Shown here one piece after another: positions 38,600 through 45,751 of a DNA stretch of 64,000 bases; the first letter of the stretch is position 1, and every line of letters begins with the position of its first letter. The stretch comes from Minisyncoccota bacterium (lineage in GTDB: Bacteria; Patescibacteriota; Minisyncoccia; Phycocordibacterales; JABAAK01). The stretch spans positions 52,133 through 116,132 of the forward strand of contig OY282360.1 of NCBI GenBank assembly GCA_958295675.1. Direction: 5' to 3'. The position numbers were made by a program, and so were the translations under genes. The notes under the pieces were generated by a model. It worked only from the letters and a program-made list of their open reading frames with translations. It made no database searches and was not told the origin of the DNA.

Positions 38600-38760
38600 T
38601 ATTTTGAGAACAACACGCGCGCTCAGTAAGCACGAGAACTAGTCGCTCCGCCCTCCCGTGCCAATCACCGCTGTTATTTTCTTTTTCCATTCAATCCGTC
38701 CACTCCGTTTTTCCCACTCTGTCCTTTTGCTCCGCAAAAGTTCGAATCTGGAAATGCTTT
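38600..38760. repeat. Left copy of a ~130-nt imperfect inverted repeat flanking the AT-rich cassette
   Basis: CGCGCTCAGTAAGCACGAGAACTAGTCGCTCCGC…CTCCCGTGCCAATCACCGCTGTTATTTTCTTTTTCC is the reverse complement (roughly 80-85% by eye) of 43895-44025. Confidence 0.6.
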
Positions 38761-38776
38761 ATTATCTGTAGTATAA

Positions 38777-39691
38777 TTAGGCATCATCAAGATTATATTG
38801 TTTTAGTAATTCAACTCTCCAGTTAATAACTAGATTATTAAAAATCTCTACGCAATATTTTGTTAAAACCGTTTCTTCTAATAGAAATAAATTTGTATCA
38901 TAACACCTTTGTGTACGCGAATACTTATAATCTAATATACATTCCTCTTCCTCTCTTCTGATGTCTCCAATTTCAAATATAGATAATACACTAATAAAAT
39001 AATCTGTTAGAACAGTTTCTCCAAGAGGTTCAGACATGCTTAATCCAAGGTTTGGATTTCCAAATGGAGCTTGTGTTGGCATTATCTTATTCTTGTTCGT
39101 TTTTTGAATAAAATAATACCTTTCTACCCTAAAATTTATAAAAGAAAAAACTGTTTTTAATATCTGTTCATCAGTCATACTTTTTTTAAAAAAACTCTTT
39201 TTTGCCGCCATTTCTGATTGTACAAGAGTATTTAATTGTTCATTGAGTGTTTTAAATACTGATTCCTTAACAGACTTTTTCTCTTTCCGCTTTTTACACA
39301 AATTTTCTATGGTCATGTCATTCATAAAAACTTGCAACGCAAGGCTTTCAAAATAAATTAACAATCTTTGTTCTCTATCAGAGTATTTAAATTTAGTATT
39401 TTTAGGAGCTCGCATATCTTTTAGCATCTTATTGTGAAATTCCTTTATCTTTGCAGCGGAATTGCTTAATGAAATTGCGTGAGCACGTGAAATATGCATG
39501 AGAATAATTGCAAAATCATTTAAAGAAATACTTCCTTCCTCTTTTGCAGAATTCATTGTTTTTTTGAGAAAGTGGAAATTCTTTCTTGTCCCTTCAAGAT
39601 CAAACTTCACTCTAATTAATTTTTTTCGCCAATCTTTGAGCAAGTCAGCGCATTTTAACTCTGTTTTGTTTATGTTATCTCTTGTCTTCAT
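38777..39691 (-). CDS. Hypothetical protein of AT-rich cassette (possible abortive-infection/defense accessory)
   Basis: 304 aa, K-rich helical, no motif recognised; markedly lower GC than the chromosome backbone. Confidence 0.55.
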   Translation of the reverse strand: MKTRDNINKTELKCADLLKDWRKKLIRVKFDLEGTRKNFHFLKKTMNSAKEEGSISLNDFAIILMHISRAHAISLSNSAAKIKEFHNKMLKDMRAPKNTKFKYSDREQRLLIYFESLALQVFMNDMTIENLCKKRKEKKSVKESVFKTLNEQLNTLVQSEMAAKKSFFKKSMTDEQILKTVFSFINFRVERYYFIQKTNKNKIMPTQAPFGNPNLGLSMSEPLGETVLTDYFISVLSIFEIGDIRREEEECILDYKYSRTQRCYDTNLFLLEETVLTKYCVEIFNNLVINWRVELLKQYNLDDA

Positions 39692-39785
39692 AACTGAAAG
39701 GAAATTGCAGATACATAAAATATACCATATCTATTCTTTCGCACTGGGTCAGCGCCTACGATACCTCTAAGAAAAAGAAATTATA

Positions 39786-41258
39786 TCATGATGCTACAGA
39801 AGCTGACACTTTCTTTCTTGCGTCAATCAAAACAATATTTTCATCTTTTTCTAGACCAATCTCTTCTAGAATTTTAATAACTCTTTCATATTCACTTTTC
39901 TCAAAAAATAATATAACTGTAAAACCATTAAATGTTCTGTTTGCTCTTTTGTATATTTCTACCTGTTTTTGTAAATTTTGCTTTAATTTTTTATTTTTTG
40001 CAAGTTTAAATTCAACCAATGTCTTGTCTCTCTTGCTCGAGATAGTAAAATCAACTGAACCTCGACCATTATTCACCTCACGGTTTACATCAAAATCAGA
40101 ATTGTAACATGTCAAATGGAATAATAGTTGAAGATCTCTTTCATTGCTGATACATCCATCTTCACGATAGAAAAGCTTATATCCGTCCATGTTTTCTATA
40201 AAATCTTTCAGAATAAGAATCCTTTTCTTTGCCTCATGATAACTTCTCACTGGCTTATAAAAACCAAGGTTTTGTAATCGCCCAATCAGAGATTGTGCAT
40301 TTTCTACAAAGAAGGTATCAGAATAATCAACCTTTTGTTGACTGATATTTATTGCTTGGTCACCATTTTCTTCCTTATATTTTATGTAGTAATCAAAGAG
40401 CTCCGGAAACCTAATGAAAGTTGATCGTATCGCTGTATTCCTTTCTTCCTTTTTCATCTCCCTATTTCCTCTTTCGTACTGTTTTATACGATTTTTATAG
40501 TAATTATTTATTTGATGGCGTAGTTGAGCATTATCAATAGTACTTGGTATTTCTGTAAAATCTTCAATCAGACCTTTTCTATTAATCCATACATCATCTT
40601 TGGTCAATATATCTACTGGCGTTAAAATGACATAGTCATTTTCAAATTTTGGCAAGATAAAATTTTTTTCTGCCCACACTTCCGTATCATAGTTAAAATA
40701 AGATTTCTTGACCCTGAAAGTTCTCGTTAGTCTTTTGTCAATGTATCGTTTTGTAAATTTTTGGGTGTATTCAAGTAAAAAATGCTTGATTAAATTGGTA
40801 ACAAAATCACTTATATTATCCCTACCAACGCCATCCTTAACCAAGCACAATTTTTCTAAATGCGCCCCTCTCGTTATATTTTCTTCACCAAAATTTTGAA
40901 AAACAGTATTTAAATTTCCGTGCAGAGCTTCTGCAAATTTCATTCCGAGTGCGTGTCCTTTGTTTCCGATCACAGAATAACCAAGCCAGTTTTGCTGAAC
41001 CTCACTGAACATATACCATGACTTCATTTTGCCAACATCTACTTCTTCAGAAGATTTGTCTTTCACGAAAATTAAATATTTGATTATTTCATTGTGTAAT
41101 TTTTGATATTCTTCCTTTTCGCTATTAAAAAGAAGGAAAGGATCAATAAAAAGAGGTAAATCAGTAATAAGGGATATATTAAATGCTCCATATTCTTTGA
41201 GATCGTCTTTTTTTACATTAAAATAGTCTGAAAAGTGGGGTTTCACATGCTTGTGCAT
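39786..41258 (-). CDS. Hypothetical protein with C-terminal PD-(D/E)xK-like nuclease motif
   Basis: 490 aa; C-terminal …GRGSVDFTISSKRDKTLVEFKLAKN fits D…(D/E)xK spacing of restriction-endonuclease-like fold; N-terminal 380 aa unassigned. Confidence 0.5.
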   Translation of the reverse strand: MHKHVKPHFSDYFNVKKDDLKEYGAFNISLITDLPLFIDPFLLFNSEKEEYQKLHNEIIKYLIFVKDKSSEEVDVGKMKSWYMFSEVQQNWLGYSVIGNKGHALGMKFAEALHGNLNTVFQNFGEENITRGAHLEKLCLVKDGVGRDNISDFVTNLIKHFLLEYTQKFTKRYIDKRLTRTFRVKKSYFNYDTEVWAEKNFILPKFENDYVILTPVDILTKDDVWINRKGLIEDFTEIPSTIDNAQLRHQINNYYKNRIKQYERGNREMKKEERNTAIRSTFIRFPELFDYYIKYKEENGDQAINISQQKVDYSDTFFVENAQSLIGRLQNLGFYKPVRSYHEAKKRILILKDFIENMDGYKLFYREDGCISNERDLQLLFHLTCYNSDFDVNREVNNGRGSVDFTISSKRDKTLVEFKLAKNKKLKQNLQKQVEIYKRANRTFNGFTVILFFEKSEYERVIKILEEIGLEKDENIVLIDARKKVSASVAS

Positions 41259-41444
41259 ATGATATTATTATATCAAAACTGTCCTGTCAGGGCTTATTTC
41301 TCTTGCTTGTGATTGATTCAGGATTTTCTTCTGAATATATAAGGTTTGAAATACATAGTTCATTTTCTTTTTTCTTCATATCAACATTCTTCATTGCCCT
41401 GTTGTATCCTGTATGTTAGGCATTGAGGAGCCATCTTTTTCATT

Positions 41445-42536
41445 TTATTTTCCTGATTTAGTGCGGTTATCTTTTTTGCATAACATCTGGCAATTTTTTG
41501 CAATTGTTTTACCACCTTCATGCCAAGGGGTAATATGGTCAGCCTCCATCTCTTGAATCTCAAACCGTTTTTCGCATTTTGCGCAGATACCCTTTTGCCT
41601 CTCATACGCTTCTCGCTTCATGTTCTCGGTAAAGGTACGAATAGAAAGATGTTTTTCCTCTCTCGTTAAGACATAGGGGTAAATGCCAGATTTTTTAGTC
41701 ACATCTTCGTCTTGCATTAATTCAGTAATCTCAGTCTCTAGTTTTTTAGCATTCAGGTTTTGAGTATTGAATTGGTTATACAGTTCACCCCAATGTACAC
41801 TCGCCATCTCATTGCGGTAATTGGTAAAAGTCTTTCGCACCCAAGCAACCACCCTTTGAAAGTATTCCCATAATTCATCAGCATTTTTATCGTGCTGATG
41901 TTTTGCCATGTACTCTTCTATTTCTCCGTTATTGATCCAGGAAAGTGCAGTCTCTAGATAGTCCTGTCTTATCGGCGAACCCTTCAGAAGTGATCCATCA
42001 TCATTCGCCAAAAGGTATGCTGCACAACCTGTTTTGCTAAATTTTAGCTTTGCGTCAGAGAGCCACGGTCCGGTGTAGACCGCATTTCGTATTTCCTGGT
42101 CAGTTAATTCTGCACCGGCAATATTAATAATCCTAAACCAATCAAGCCGCTCTTTATCTGTGCCTTCGCAGAAGTAAATCATTAGTTCATAATTTAAAAT
42201 CTGGTCTTGTTCCTCGCCAGTTAAATTATGAAAATAGTGATTATTCAATGAAAAGTCACCGTTTATATATTGTCCTATACTTATAGTTCGTTGTTGACCG
42301 TCCAGCATTTCATAATTTCCACCTTCTTTTACCATCCAGTACATAACATTGAGTGGAAAACCATTTTTAATTGTTTCAATTACGGCATCACGCTGTTTGC
42401 CGGTATAGACAAACTCTCTTTGGTATTTAGGACGAATGTCTAATCTACCACCATAGGCGGTAACACCTTCCTCATCACTGTCTTTGTATTTCTCAACCAC
42501 ATCACGAACCAAAATCTTGTGTAATTCAATTTTCAT
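41445..42536 (-). CDS. DUF262 (ParB-like, DGQQR motif) + C-terminal HNH nuclease protein
   Basis: MLDGQQRTISIGQY (DGQQR signature) in N-terminal half; C-terminal CAKCEKRF…ADHITPWHEGGKT…NCQMLCKKDN = HNH (Cys4 + His-Asn-His); start overlaps MTase stop. Confidence 0.75.
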   Translation of the reverse strand: MKIELHKILVRDVVEKYKDSDEEGVTAYGGRLDIRPKYQREFVYTGKQRDAVIETIKNGFPLNVMYWMVKEGGNYEMLDGQQRTISIGQYINGDFSLNNHYFHNLTGEEQDQILNYELMIYFCEGTDKERLDWFRIINIAGAELTDQEIRNAVYTGPWLSDAKLKFSKTGCAAYLLANDDGSLLKGSPIRQDYLETALSWINNGEIEEYMAKHQHDKNADELWEYFQRVVAWVRKTFTNYRNEMASVHWGELYNQFNTQNLNAKKLETEITELMQDEDVTKKSGIYPYVLTREEKHLSIRTFTENMKREAYERQKGICAKCEKRFEIQEMEADHITPWHEGGKTIAKNCQMLCKKDNRTKSGK

Positions 42537-42537
42537 G

Positions 42538-43566
42538 TTATTTTTTTGCTTTTTTATTTCTTATTAATATTCTGAAGTATGTATACTTTCCATCTATCGA
42601 TAAATCCTTATCATCATCACCTTTTCTAAACTTTACTATCTCAAACTGGTCAGGATTATATTTGTCAAGGAATGTGATTGGGACACCTATAACACCATCA
42701 TAATTATAAGGTATATCGGTATATTTATCTACATTAATTGCATTATAATTATCATATTTTGGATATTCTTCCGGTGTGTATTTTTTATAAAGTACGATAT
42801 CGTTTTTGTGTTTTGTAACTTCAAGATTTGTAAACCAACATGAAGTTGCTACACGAGCAATCTTCTTGCCATTTTCATCAATATGGTGAAATTTTTCCCA
42901 ATCGTCTGGTACAACAAAAAACATTCCTACATTAAAATTAGTATAACCAGTTCGAATTTTATTTTCCTTGAAAAATTTAAAAATCTCTTTATATGTAATT
43001 GCATTTGTATTACCAATAATCAAGAATTCTTTATCAAGTTCTGTTAATTGTGTAACATACTCACGAAATAATGAAAATGGAGGGTTAGTAACCACCACAT
43101 CCGCTTGTTTGAGTAAATTGACACATTCTTCACTACGAAAATCACCATCACCTTCAAGAGGTTTTGCAACATTAGCATCTTGTCTCAGTAATTGCTCAAC
43201 GTCTTCCAAATTGACTGCACCATCATTATTAAGATCTTTAACTTCATTAATTTCAATTCTAAATGGCTCCTTTCCTTCAGGTTTTAATCCCTCTATTTCA
43301 ACGAGTGGCAACTGCCCACCAGCAATTGGTGACCTTATATAACTTGTGGCAATAAGTTTTTTAAGTTTCAGTGCGTTAAAATTAGCGGCAAAATACTTAA
43401 AAAAGTTACTTTCATAAGGATCATCGCAGTTACAGTACACAACCTTATCATGAAATTGTTCTTTGTAATGTCTTAACTCTTTCTCAATATCAACAAGTTG
43501 AGTATAAAACTCATCTTTTTTTGCTTTAGATGCCTGATGAAGAGCTGTATTTGAAGATTTAGCCAT
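42538..43566 (-). CDS. DNA methyltransferase (amino-methyltransferase, NPPF motif IV; N6A or N4C)
   Basis: DEFYTQ near N-terminus and VVVTNPPFS catalytic motif; 342 aa; translationally coupled to the DUF262-HNH gene. Confidence 0.8.
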   Translation of the reverse strand: MAKSSNTALHQASKAKKDEFYTQLVDIEKELRHYKEQFHDKVVYCNCDDPYESNFFKYFAANFNALKLKKLIATSYIRSPIAGGQLPLVEIEGLKPEGKEPFRIEINEVKDLNNDGAVNLEDVEQLLRQDANVAKPLEGDGDFRSEECVNLLKQADVVVTNPPFSLFREYVTQLTELDKEFLIIGNTNAITYKEIFKFFKENKIRTGYTNFNVGMFFVVPDDWEKFHHIDENGKKIARVATSCWFTNLEVTKHKNDIVLYKKYTPEEYPKYDNYNAINVDKYTDIPYNYDGVIGVPITFLDKYNPDQFEIVKFRKGDDDKDLSIDGKYTYFRILIRNKKAKK

Positions 43567-43894
43567 AACAATTTCTTATACTTAAAGTATGCCATCTAAT
43601 TTTTATGATAATCCAACAGAAGAAATTCCAGCAAAAACAAATTATCCACCCATTTTTCTTATAACGACAGTGTGTATTCTCATAATAGGAAATCCGTCCG
43701 TGAAAACCCTATCGGGAGGTTCACTGGCGGATTACTAGTTTTCCTCTCCTTCGCCAACGCCGAACATTTTCTTTTGCAGTTTTGATACGTGCCGTTAAGG
43801 CATAGAAAGGTTCTAGTGATACATATTGATGACCCACCTGCTCTCCGTACCGAATCCGCGGCGAGCACGCGGAGTTGGGGCGGTGGAAGAATAG

Positions 43895-44025
43895 AAAAAG
43901 AAAATAACGGCGGTGATTGGCACGGGAGCGGAGCGAACGGAGGGGTCTTGTCGCAGGCATGTCCCCGCAACGATGCGGAGCGACTAGTTTTCATGTTTAC
44001 TGAGCGCGAATGTGTGTCATCTTGT
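43895..44025. repeat. Right copy of the imperfect inverted repeat (contains a 46-nt insertion relative to the left copy)
   Basis: GAAAAAGAAAATAACGGCGGTGATTGGCACGGGAG…CGGAGCGACTAGTT…TACTGAGCGCG matches the reverse complement of 38600-38700. Confidence 0.6.
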
Positions 44026-44034
44026 ATCCTTGGG

Positions 44035-44105
44035 TGCGGGCGGGGAGAATCGAACTCCCGTTTTCCGCTTGGAAGGCGGATGTTCTACCACTAAACTACG
44101 CCCGC
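44035..44105 (-). tRNA. tRNA-Gly (anticodon TCC)
   Basis: Cloverleaf on minus strand: acceptor GCGGGCG/CGCCCGC, anticodon stem TCCGC/GCGGA, loop CTTCCAA, T arm GGGAG-TTCGATT-CTCCC; 71 nt. Confidence 0.85.
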
Positions 44106-45022: not shown

Positions 45023-45751
45023 ATGGCGGTAGAAATTGTATCCCTGCTTATTGTTATCGGCATTCTACTATATGTGTTGCCGTCCCTTATTGCGCATTAT
45101 CGTGGACACAAGCACACACTCCAGATTATCCTACTCAACCTTTTCCTTGGTTGGACAATTGTTTGTTGGTTCGGTGCATTCGTTTGGTCTGTTCTGACAG
45201 ACACACCACCAATTGATCTGAAACAGGTACTTAAGAAAATATTGATCACACTTCTTATTGTCACACTGCTTTTCATTGGATTAGTGTTCGGAATAAATCG
45301 GTTTCTGTACACATCTATTACTTCAGAATCGGAAGATATTTCTTGGCAACTCTCCACACAAGTAGGTTATCTCATATCACCATATCCATTCGCACAATTA
45401 CATTCAGACACTGCGCATGGCAGTCAATCATCTCTCTACATACATTGTCGGCATGACTTTCTGCAAGTACATATAGCTACCAACTTGCACGGACAGTTAC
45501 CCGGTGATGAATCAGATAAGCAGGTAAGGGCGCGACATCGAATAGGTCAGGGTGACTGGATAGATTTGGAATGGATTGCAAAACGCGGCGGTGTTACTTA
45601 TCCAGACACTGATTTTGTTCATTTTGTGAATTCACTGGACCAAGAAAAATCTGACCTTGTGATTGAATTTGAAACCGGCACCAAAGTTCAATTCCCTATT
45701 TGGAACGGTTACGACGATATGCGCAATCATATTACTTGTTTGCGGCAATAG
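45023..45751 (+). CDS. Superinfection-immunity-like (Imm/SIP family) membrane protein with C-terminal extension
   Basis: N-terminal …LPSLIAHYRGHKHTLQIILLNLFLGWTIVCWFGAFVWSV matches the two-helix superinfection immunity protein signature; second TM pair follows; 242 aa. Confidence 0.6.
   Translation: MAVEIVSLLIVIGILLYVLPSLIAHYRGHKHTLQIILLNLFLGWTIVCWFGAFVWSVLTDTPPIDLKQVLKKILITLLIVTLLFIGLVFGINRFLYTSITSESEDISWQLSTQVGYLISPYPFAQLHSDTAHGSQSSLYIHCRHDFLQVHIATNLHGQLPGDESDKQVRARHRIGQGDWIDLEWIAKRGGVTYPDTDFVHFVNSLDQEKSDLVIEFETGTKVQFPIWNGYDDMRNHITCLRQ

What the first reader, a model, noticed from the sequence alone, without database searches (positions are those of the whole stretch)
41445..43566. Translationally coupled NPPF methyltransferase + DUF262(DGQQR)-HNH nuclease: unusual restriction-modification-like pair
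The MTase stop overlaps the start of a protein whose N-terminal half has the DGQQR ParB-like (DUF262) signature and whose C-terminus is a canonical HNH nuclease with a Cys4 zinc knuckle. DUF262 nucleases are best known from modification-dependent (type IV, GmrSD-like) enzymes. Coupling one to a cognate MTase instead implies a type II-like system using a DUF262-HNH restriction component, or a MTase that protects against its own modification-dependent partner. Either arrangement is uncommon.
Basis: partly seen in the sequence, partly recalled or inferred. Interest (0 to 1): 0.6.

Follow-up and report, generated by a model that had tools for sequence, protein, structure and literature searches.

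The report
EcoRI-type methylase with DUF262-HNH nuclease
This is a real two-gene restriction-modification cassette, an EcoRI-family adenine methylase followed by a ParB-like/HNH nuclease, that turns out to be a very common, already catalogued mobile module whose cutting enzyme has never been studied biochemically as far as I could find.

Summary
On the minus strand, a 342-aa EcoRI-family N6-adenine methyltransferase (42538-43566, NPPF intact, 51% identical to true M.EcoRI) is followed after TAA-C-ATG by a 363-aa protein (41445-42536). The spacer is 1 nt, so the genes do not overlap. The second protein has an N-terminal DUF262/ParB-like domain (DGQQR), a helical middle and a C-terminal Cys4 HNH.

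The pairing is not accidental. 77 of 80 related genome loci, 46 of 46 plasmid records and one Flavobacterium phage keep methylase-then-nuclease on one strand. 45 of the 77 loci share the junction AAATAA-T-ATGAAA, and one fused methylase-nuclease protein exists. The downstream genes of the window are not conserved with the pair.

"Uncommon" is wrong. The searches hit their 8,000-protein cap, and the family spans Patescibacteria, Proteobacteria, Firmicutes, Actinobacteria, an archaeal MAG, plasmids and phage. PADLOC already has a full-length "Type II REase" model for it (E=1e-132).

Best reading: a mobile Type II-like R-M cassette, with a likely GAATTC/AATT-core target (inferred). Its nuclease is built like the modification-sensing GmrSD/BrxU/SspE enzymes. 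Whether it is simply blocked by m6A or senses it SspE-style is unresolved. I found no biochemical study or solved structure.

Verdict: new member of a known, catalogued kind; moderate-low interest.

The parts
42538..43566 (-). Gene for an EcoRI-family (gamma-class) N6-adenine DNA methyltransferase, 342 aa; first gene of the cassette
   Evidence: Pfam PF13651 E=1.7e-133. PADLOC MTase_II PDLC03297 E=4e-123. 51% identity over the full length to M.EcoRI from an E. coli plasmid, where that gene sits next to R.EcoRI.
43075..43086 (-). Catalytic motif IV, NPPF, of the methyltransferase
   Evidence: Translation. The motif is identical in all 71 aligned methylases, including M.EcoRI.
42534..42540 (-). 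Gene junction TAA-C-ATG: methylase stop, 1-nt spacer, nuclease start
   Evidence: Sequence. The same junction type, AAATAA-T-ATGAAA, occurs in 45 of 77 related loci, and 8 more overlap by 4 or 11 nt.
41445..42536 (-). Gene for the DUF262-helical-HNH endonuclease, 363 aa; the putative restriction component
   Evidence: Pfam GmrSD_N + HNH. PADLOC REase_II PDLC03418 E=1.3e-132, residues 1-363 against model positions 1-372 of 372. AlphaFold model pLDDT 93.7, pTM 0.79.
42075..42437 (-). DUF262 / ParB-Srx-like NTP-binding domain (Pfam match, residues 34-154; the fold starts near residue 1)
42288..42302 (-). DGQQR signature of the DUF262 domain
   Evidence: Translation. D79, G80 and R83 are invariant and Q81, Q82 at least 90% conserved in 54 relatives at 35-56% identity.
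41637..42074 (-). Mostly helical middle region (residues about 155-300), without its own Pfam family; candidate DNA-recognition or linker region (inferred)
   Evidence: Secondary structure of the confident model. Conserved W232, F237, R190, Q191. No separate fold match.
41454..41585 (-). HNH nuclease domain with Cys4 zinc site (C318, C321, C349, C353; D333-H334, N348, N357)
   Evidence: Pfam PF01844 E=9e-11. Translation. PDB 4h9d, Cas9 HNH and McrA matches.
38600..43700 (.). Low-GC island (about 0.33 against about 0.45 in the flanks) that carries the cassette plus two unrelated genes
   Evidence: Composition profiles. The island is less depleted in TCGA, AGCT and CTAG than the rest of the window.
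44033..44105 (-). tRNA-Gly(UCC) on the same strand, 466 bp upstream of the methylase start; the flank of the island, not part of the cassette
   Evidence: ARAGORN and Rfam. A same-strand tRNA lies within 1 kb upstream of the methylase in 9 of 60 related loci.

Best explanation
This is a mobile, two-gene, Type II-like restriction-modification cassette.

The first gene encodes an EcoRI-family N6-adenine methyltransferase that marks host DNA at a short site. That site probably contains the AATT core and is most likely GAATTC or a close relative (inferred).

The second gene starts one base after the methylase stop. It is therefore probably made by re-initiation and never without the methylase message. 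It encodes a compact endonuclease that attacks DNA lacking that mark.

The nuclease combines three parts:
- a ParB/Srx-like DUF262 domain with an intact DGQQR nucleotide-binding motif;
- a helical middle region;
- a zinc-stabilised HNH active site that does the cutting.

By analogy with GmrSD, BrxU and SspE, the DUF262 domain probably binds or hydrolyses a nucleotide and acts as the DNA-sensing and regulatory switch, while the HNH domain cleaves or nicks.

Shown here: the domain identities, the intact motifs, the conserved pairing and gene order, and the mobility. Inferred: the target sequence, that m6A blocks cutting, nucleotide dependence, and the oligomeric state.
For: Domains and motifs.

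Pairing:
- 77/80 genome loci have an EcoRI-family methylase upstream on the same strand.
- 45 of these share the 1-nt spacer junction and 8 overlap.
- 46/46 plasmid records with a full-length relative (33-61% identity) have the methylase next to it.
- Flavobacterium phage laban6-1 carries PF13651 then DUF262, overlapping by 4 nt.
- A 688-aa fusion combines EcoRI_methylase + GmrSD_N + HNH.
- All 71 methylases keep NPPF, so methylation is under selection.
- PADLOC places both proteins in Type II R-M models over their full length.

Target: the methylase is 51% identical to M.EcoRI across its whole length, including the C-terminal half. M.EcoRI is only slightly more distant from the cassette methylases (median 52%) than they are from each other (median 62%, minimum 46%). 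Per PMC5896346, predicted EcoRI isoschizomers share 50-70% identity and M.LraI protects DNA from EcoRI cleavage (context only). GAATTC is mildly under-represented in the pooled 832 kb of host loci (O/E 0.79, rank 8 of 64 palindromes).
Against: - No experiment or paper on this family was found. The provenance of the PADLOC model, characterised or only putative REBASE entries, could not be established.
- Every structurally characterised DUF262-nuclease relative (BrxU, SspE, the DndI-type protein) senses modified DNA rather than being blocked by it.
- Three of 80 loci (L038, L065, L068) have no methylase hit upstream of the nuclease. In L065 and L068 the nuclease gene is full-length. L038 has only 463 bp of upstream sequence. 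A lone classical REase would be dangerous unless a methylase sits elsewhere in the genome.
- GAATTC and AATT are not depleted in the window, and the pooled depletion is weak.
- The one fusion protein has TFPSF in place of NPPF.
Confidence: 0.65

Rival explanations
1. SspE/DndI-like modification-sensing system. The DUF262 domain reads the m6A mark laid down by the partner methylase on host DNA and uses it as a self signal that tunes its NTPase and HNH activity. The HNH domain nicks or cuts invading DNA with little sequence specificity of its own. The methylase alone would then define the specificity.
For: - SspE works together with a host modification module.
- Within the sampled clade the nuclease is more uniform (median 81% pairwise identity) than its methylases (62%).
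- Methylase and nuclease distances correlate weakly (Spearman 0.25). This is easier to understand if the nuclease does not have to match a site independently.
- Full-length nuclease genes occur without an adjacent methylase in L065 and L068.
Against: - The loci were chosen by nuclease similarity, so part of the 81% against 62% contrast is selection bias. At larger distances on plasmids the two proteins diverge in step, for example 38% and 40%.
- The nuclease domain is a classical Cys4 HNH (PF01844), not DUF1524.
- The protein is 363 aa, against 560-590 for SspE and BrxU, and lacks their long helical parts.
- Strict methylase-first coupling is the classic Type II layout.
Confidence: 0.2
2. Type IV arrangement. 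The DUF262-HNH enzyme attacks foreign modified DNA (for example hypermodified cytosines). The linked methylase either protects host DNA from it or serves another purpose.
For: DUF262 nucleases with known function include the Type IV enzymes GmrSD and BrxU. BrxU is the best structural match.
Against: - Type IV enzymes need no cognate methylase, yet here the pair is kept in 77/80 genome loci and 46/46 plasmids, tightly coupled and even fused.
- All the methylases keep their catalytic motif.
- PADLOC's Type IV and GmrSD-type models did not match. The only full-length hit is REase_II.
Confidence: 0.06
3. Mainly a selfish addiction or homing cassette. The pair persists because losing it kills the cell or because the HNH nuclease promotes its own spread, with little role in defence.
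For: - About 80% protein identity across very distant phyla, and presence on plasmids and a phage.
- Low-GC island in the window.
- Repeated location just downstream of tRNA genes.
- Unrelated cargo genes inserted between the two genes in about 15 loci.
Against: This does not exclude the R-M mechanism, since Type II systems are known to behave selfishly. No repeats, integrase or target duplication were found around the island. Homing HNH genes do not normally travel with a methylase.
Confidence: 0.05

Closest known systems
EcoRI restriction-modification system (M.EcoRI + R.EcoRI, Type IIP)
   Same: The methylase is a clear homologue: PF13651, 51% identity over the full length to M.EcoRI, NPPF conserved. 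Both are two-gene cassettes, and both occur on small mobile plasmids.
   Different: The nuclease is unrelated to R.EcoRI. It is ParB-like DUF262 + HNH rather than PD-(D/E)XK. The gene order is methylase first, whereas in the EcoRI plasmid the R gene precedes M. The target sequence is not established.
GmrSD / BrxU family Type IV restriction enzymes (DUF262 + DUF1524)
   Different: The protein is about 200 residues shorter. Its nuclease is a Cys4 PF01844 HNH rather than DUF1524. It is always linked to an m6A methylase, which Type IV enzymes do not need. Modification dependence has not been shown here.
SspABCD-SspE and Dnd phosphorothioate systems
   Different: The modification here is adenine methylation by a single enzyme, not phosphorothioation by a multi-protein machine. 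The nuclease domain differs. Whether the mark is sensed is unknown.
HNH-type Type II restriction enzymes (KpnI, Hpy99I, PacI, SphI and others; review PMC4081073)
   Same: Type II context with a beta-beta-alpha-metal nuclease and a Cys4 zinc site.
   Different: The HNH passages I read in that review name no enzyme with a ParB-like or DUF262 domain, and the word ParB does not occur in the paper. No sequence similarity outside the HNH core.
REBASE putative Type II enzymes annotated as DUF262 proteins (e.g. Ban8145ORF124P, RTCAGG, in Bifidobacterium animalis; PMC13091528)
   Same: Precedent that curators already pair DUF262 proteins with Type II methylases as the restriction component.
   Different: A different site (asymmetric) and a different methylase. 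Relatedness to this protein was not tested. That entry is also only putative.

Membership tests
EcoRI-family N6-adenine DNA methyltransferases (Pfam PF13651) | Full-length match to the family profile above the curated threshold | tested here: met
   445.7 bits against a cut-off of 26.4; residues 9-319 on profile positions 2-306 of 345.
EcoRI-family N6-adenine DNA methyltransferases (Pfam PF13651) | Catalytic motif IV (NPPF) present | tested here: met
   NPPF at residues 161-164; the same in 71/71 aligned members, including M.EcoRI.
EcoRI-family N6-adenine DNA methyltransferases (Pfam PF13651) | Methylates the second adenine of GAATTC | not testable with these tools
   Only indirect evidence: 51% identity to M.EcoRI and weak pooled depletion of GAATTC.
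Type II restriction-modification system | Separate methylase and endonuclease genes, adjacent and co-oriented | tested here: met
   1-nt spacer in the window. The layout is conserved in 77/80 loci and 46/46 plasmids. PADLOC MTase_II and REase_II models match over the full length.
Type II restriction-modification system | The endonuclease cuts at or near a defined sequence and is blocked by the cognate methylation, without needing ATP/NTP | not testable with these tools
   No biochemical data found. The intact DGQQR nucleotide-binding motif raises the possibility of NTP dependence, which would be atypical for Type II.
GmrSD-family Type IV restriction enzymes | N-terminal DUF262 domain with the DGQQR motif | tested here: met
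GmrSD-family Type IV restriction enzymes | C-terminal DUF1524 (PF07510) nuclease domain | tested here: not met
   The Pfam scan reports PF01844 and PF14279 HNH, not DUF1524. The architecture is DUF262 + Cys4 HNH.
GmrSD-family Type IV restriction enzymes | Stand-alone, modification-dependent enzyme with no cognate methylase | tested here: not met
   An active-looking methylase is linked in 77/80 loci and 46/46 plasmids. Modification dependence itself is not testable here.
SspE-type modification-sensing nucleases | Partner of a phosphorothioate modification module (SspABCD or Dnd) | tested here: not met
   The only conserved neighbour is the EcoRI-family methylase. No ssp or dnd genes appear in the window ORF list or the family scans.

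The most novel reading that the evidence does not exclude
The DUF262-HNH protein is not a conventional Type II enzyme. It is a nucleotide-gated restriction nuclease that uses its ParB-like domain to read adenine methylation, the m6A counterpart of phosphorothioate-sensing SspE. A GmrSD-type, modification-sensing scaffold would then have been turned into the restriction arm of a methylase-protected system, and this would be the predominant natural partner of EcoRI-family methylases.
Probability: 0.2. Interest if true: 0.7.

Novelty: new member of a known kind. Interest (0 to 1): 0.33.

Why it matters
For this window it matters little. The cassette is one more copy, about 80% identical to thousands of others, of a module that defence-system annotation tools already file under Type II R-M.

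The family as a whole is more interesting than its annotation ("DUF262 domain-containing protein") suggests:
- In this sample it is the usual partner of EcoRI-family methylases outside the enterobacteria.
- It is spread across very distant phyla, plasmids and a phage.
- It is especially common in the small genomes of Patescibacteria, where R-M is a main line of defence.
- Its nuclease is built on the scaffold of modification-sensing Type IV enzymes.
- I found no biochemical study, recognition site or structure for it.

Characterising one member would show how a ParB-like NTP-binding domain works in a methylation-protected restriction enzyme. It might also yield a new enzyme class for an AATT-core site.

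Tried and rejected
- Identifying a characterised REBASE enzyme behind PADLOC model PDLC03418. Seven literature searches and a reading of the PADLOC papers gave no answer. Candidates recalled from memory (AATT-core enzymes such as ApoI, MluCI, Sse9I, Tsp509I) are only leads.
- Inferring the target from word avoidance. GAATTC O/E is 0.79 in the pooled loci (rank 8/64) but 0.98 in the window, and AATT is not depleted. This is not decisive, and I had no control set of genomes without the cassette.
- The 490-aa downstream gene as the true restriction partner. It has a weak DpnII/MboI-like hit (E=0.0035, below threshold). Rejected because it has no tblastn match in any of the 80 related loci.
- First structure prediction with 39 sequences at about 80% identity. 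It failed (pLDDT 50.7) and was replaced by a diverse alignment.
- Exact look-up of the window protein's contig: not on record. The host is known only as a 724,510-bp contig from NCBI/ENA.
- Attachment-site repeats around the island: none found.
- An RNA gene in the GC-rich spacer 43700-44000: no Rfam match and only a modest fold z-score of -2.3.
Full report
**What is in the sequence**

Two ORFs on the minus strand fill the stated interval exactly.

The upstream ORF (42538-43566, 342 aa) matches Pfam EcoRI_methylase (PF13651) at E=1.7e-133 over nearly the whole profile. It matches PADLOC MTase_II PDLC03297 at E=4e-123. It carries NPPF at 43075-43086.

The downstream ORF (41445-42536, 363 aa) matches GmrSD_N/DUF262 (PF03235, E=7e-16, residues 34-154) and HNH (PF01844, E=9e-11, residues 318-361). 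DGQQR is at 42288-42302. The HNH segment reads CAKC...DH...NCQMLC...N.

The junction is TAA-C-ATG. This is a one-base spacer, not an overlap. The ATG is the first start codon after an in-frame stop, so no longer overlapping reading exists.

**Structure**

A first AlphaFold run on 39 close homologues failed (pLDDT 50.7). A run on 54 relatives at 35-56% identity gave a confident model (pLDDT 93.7, pTM 0.79).
- Foldseek against the PDB hits the CTP-binding N-terminal domains of Noc and ParB (probability 0.98-0.99), BrxU, and the Gme, McrA and Cas9 HNH domains.
- No match spans the whole chain, and no solved structure is a close sequence relative.

Across the 54 divergent relatives, Q39, R40, D79, G80, R83, N138, Q147, E148, N151, C318 and N348 are invariant, and H334, C321 and C353 are at least 90% conserved. 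Both the nucleotide-binding motif and the nuclease site are therefore under selection. The attribution of NTPase activity to the DGQQR motif comes from work on GmrSD (PMC4619093) and BrxU (PMC12707154).

**Is the pairing real?**

A scan of one genome per species found 283 relatives. The best 80 (76-83% identity) come mainly from Patescibacteria. Others come from Gammaproteobacteria, Bdellovibrionales, Omnitrophota, Flavobacteriaceae, Anaerolineaceae, Atribacterota and an archaeal MAG.

In 77 of these 80 loci an EcoRI-family methylase lies upstream on the same strand. None of the window's other island genes is found in any of them. The spacing in the 77 loci is as follows:
- 45 have a spacer of exactly 1 nt, with the near-identical junction AAATAA-T-ATGAAA;
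- 8 have genes that overlap by 4 or 11 nt;
- 9 have spacers of 2-23 nt;
- 15 have 300-1900 bp inserted between the genes. The eight inserts of 550 bp or more that I examined, plus L002 (506 bp), contain a long ORF. Those I scanned belong to DUF2130, T5orf172, RhuM and Bro-N families.

On plasmids of cultured bacteria, all 46 records with a full-length relative (33-61% identity) have the methylase beside it, methylase first. The hosts include Macrococcoides, Mammaliicoccus, Enterococcus, lactobacilli, Leuconostoc, Aeromonas, Vibrio, Moraxella, Variovorax, Sulfitobacter and many Actinobacteria.

Seen from the methylase side, 60 plasmid records were listed.
- Ten enterobacterial ones have a methylase of EcoRI length (about 326 aa) at 49-51% identity. 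The one I inspected sits next to R.EcoRI.
- About 42 of the other 50 carry the DUF262-HNH gene.

Flavobacterium phage laban6-1 has the same pair, overlapping by 4 nt. One 688-aa protein fuses EcoRI_methylase, GmrSD_N and HNH, although its motif IV is degenerate (TFPSF). All 71 aligned methylases keep NPPF.

The association is therefore ancient, specific and far beyond chance. The window's 490-aa neighbour, with its sub-threshold DpnII-like hit, is not the partner.

**How common is it?**

The first 120 hits are 79-82% identical to the window protein and almost all 363 aa long. The exhaustive search of 50%-identity cluster representatives found 497 clusters at E<1e-30. PADLOC has a dedicated REase_II model that aligns end to end (1-363 against 1-372 of 372, E=1.3e-132).

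**What does it do?**

The layout is the standard one for Type II R-M: an active methylase first, a nuclease tightly coupled behind it, always together, and mobile. I take that as the most likely function (about 0.65).

The likely target is inferred.
- The methylase is 51% identical to genuine M.EcoRI over its full length, including the C-terminal half.
- M.EcoRI is an outgroup to the cassette methylases, but only just: median 52% identity, against 62% among themselves and a minimum of 46%.
- PMC5896346 reports that predicted EcoRI isoschizomers share 50-70% identity and that M.LraI protects DNA from EcoRI cleavage.
- GAATTC is mildly under-represented in the pooled host loci (O/E 0.79, rank 8 of 64) but not in the window. 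This is weak evidence only.

What is unusual is the nuclease scaffold. Its solved relatives either require modification (GmrSD, BrxU) or sense a host modification (SspE, DndI-type). This leaves a real alternative (about 0.2): the DUF262 domain reads the m6A mark rather than the protein simply being blocked at a site.

Points in favour of that alternative:
- The nucleases in the sampled clade are more uniform (median 81%) than their methylases (62%), with weak co-divergence (Spearman 0.25).
- Two loci hold a full-length nuclease gene with no methylase upstream.

Caveats:
- The loci were selected by nuclease similarity.
- On plasmids the two proteins diverge in parallel.
- The missing methylases may lie elsewhere in those MAGs.

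A pure Type IV role is unlikely given the obligatory, catalytically intact methylase. A purely selfish role does not exclude the R-M mechanism.

**Context in the window**

The cassette lies in a low-GC island, about 38.6-43.7 kb (GC about 0.33 against about 0.45). The island sits immediately downstream of tRNA-Gly(UCC) on the same strand. It is flanked by housekeeping genes: class I LysRS, CCA-adding enzyme, PNPase, NusA, trigger factor and PGK.

The host contig is 724,510 bp. Together with the relatives' taxonomy, this fits a Patescibacteria-type small genome (inference). No att-like repeats or integrase were found.

**Novelty and literature**

I found no paper describing this enzyme family, its recognition site or its structure. 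The Type II review (PMC4081073) names no ParB/DUF262-containing enzyme in the HNH passages I read, and the word ParB does not occur in it. REBASE does already label at least one DUF262 protein as a putative Type II enzyme (PMC13091528), and PADLOC models this family as REase_II.

The window's cassette is thus a new member of a catalogued but apparently uncharacterised kind. Interest for the window itself is low. Interest for the family is moderate, because the mechanism of a GmrSD-like scaffold in a methylase-protected system is open and easy to test.

Noticed in passing
window 39786-41258 (-) and 38777-39691 (-): These are the two other genes of the low-GC island. The 490-aa protein matches PADLOC defence candidate PDC-M36A over its N-terminal 260 residues (E=1.8e-21) and has a sub-threshold DpnII/MboI-like nuclease hit at residues 370-452. 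The 304-aa protein has no family. They may form a second, separate defence unit. Neither is found next to the cassette in the 80 related loci.
   Followed up: partly
whole window 1-64000: Several 4-base palindromes are very strongly depleted: GGCC O/E 0.21, TCGA 0.26, ACGT 0.30, AGCT 0.49, CTAG 0.49. This suggests a long history of several 4-cutter R-M systems in this lineage. The island is less depleted in TCGA, AGCT and CTAG than the rest of the window, which fits recent acquisition, but the counts are small.
   Followed up: partly
L011, L044, L001, L054, L025, L031, L020, L018 and other related loci, between the methylase and nuclease genes: In 15 of 77 related loci, 300-1900 bp are inserted between the two genes. 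The eight inserts of 550 bp or more that I examined, plus L002 (506 bp), hold a long ORF; those scanned belong to DUF2130, T5orf172/MUG113, RhuM and Bro-N families. These are genes often seen inside other R-M operons, so the junction looks like an insertion hot spot.
   Followed up: partly
window 44033-44105 and L002, L003, L005, L016, L022, L023, L035, L036, L049: A tRNA gene on the same strand lies 39-825 bp upstream of the methylase start in 9 of 60 related loci, and in the window (466 bp). The tRNA identities differ (Gln, Ser, Met, Arg, Leu, Gly). My rough estimate from tRNA density puts the chance expectation at about 2%. This suggests insertion at tRNA 3' flanks or use of tRNA read-through for expression.
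   Followed up: partly
window 43700-44000: A GC-rich stretch (0.52) of about 300 bp lies between tRNA-Gly and the low-GC cassette. It has no convincing ORF and no Rfam match even at E<=1. Its predicted RNA fold is modestly more stable than shuffles (z=-2.3). It remains unexplained.
   Followed up: partly
window 45023-45751 (+): A 242-aa ORF with an N-terminal superinfection-immunity domain (PF14373, E=4e-17) sits between two tRNA-Pro genes, in a stretch with four tRNA genes within 5 kb.
   Followed up: no
L065 984-2090 and L068 3305-4396: These are full-length DUF262-HNH genes (368 and 363 aa) with no EcoRI-family methylase upstream: a DnaJ-like ORF lies upstream in L065 and seryl-tRNA synthetase in L068. 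Either the methylase is elsewhere in these MAGs or the nuclease is tolerated alone. This bears on the mechanism.
   Followed up: partly
proteins P0123 (464 aa) and P0126 (480 aa): These relatives carry a C-terminal extension of about 100 aa, and their HNH region has lost most zinc-binding cysteines (CAITGKE....MVSIKGH). They may be a variant with an altered or inactive nuclease.
   Followed up: no
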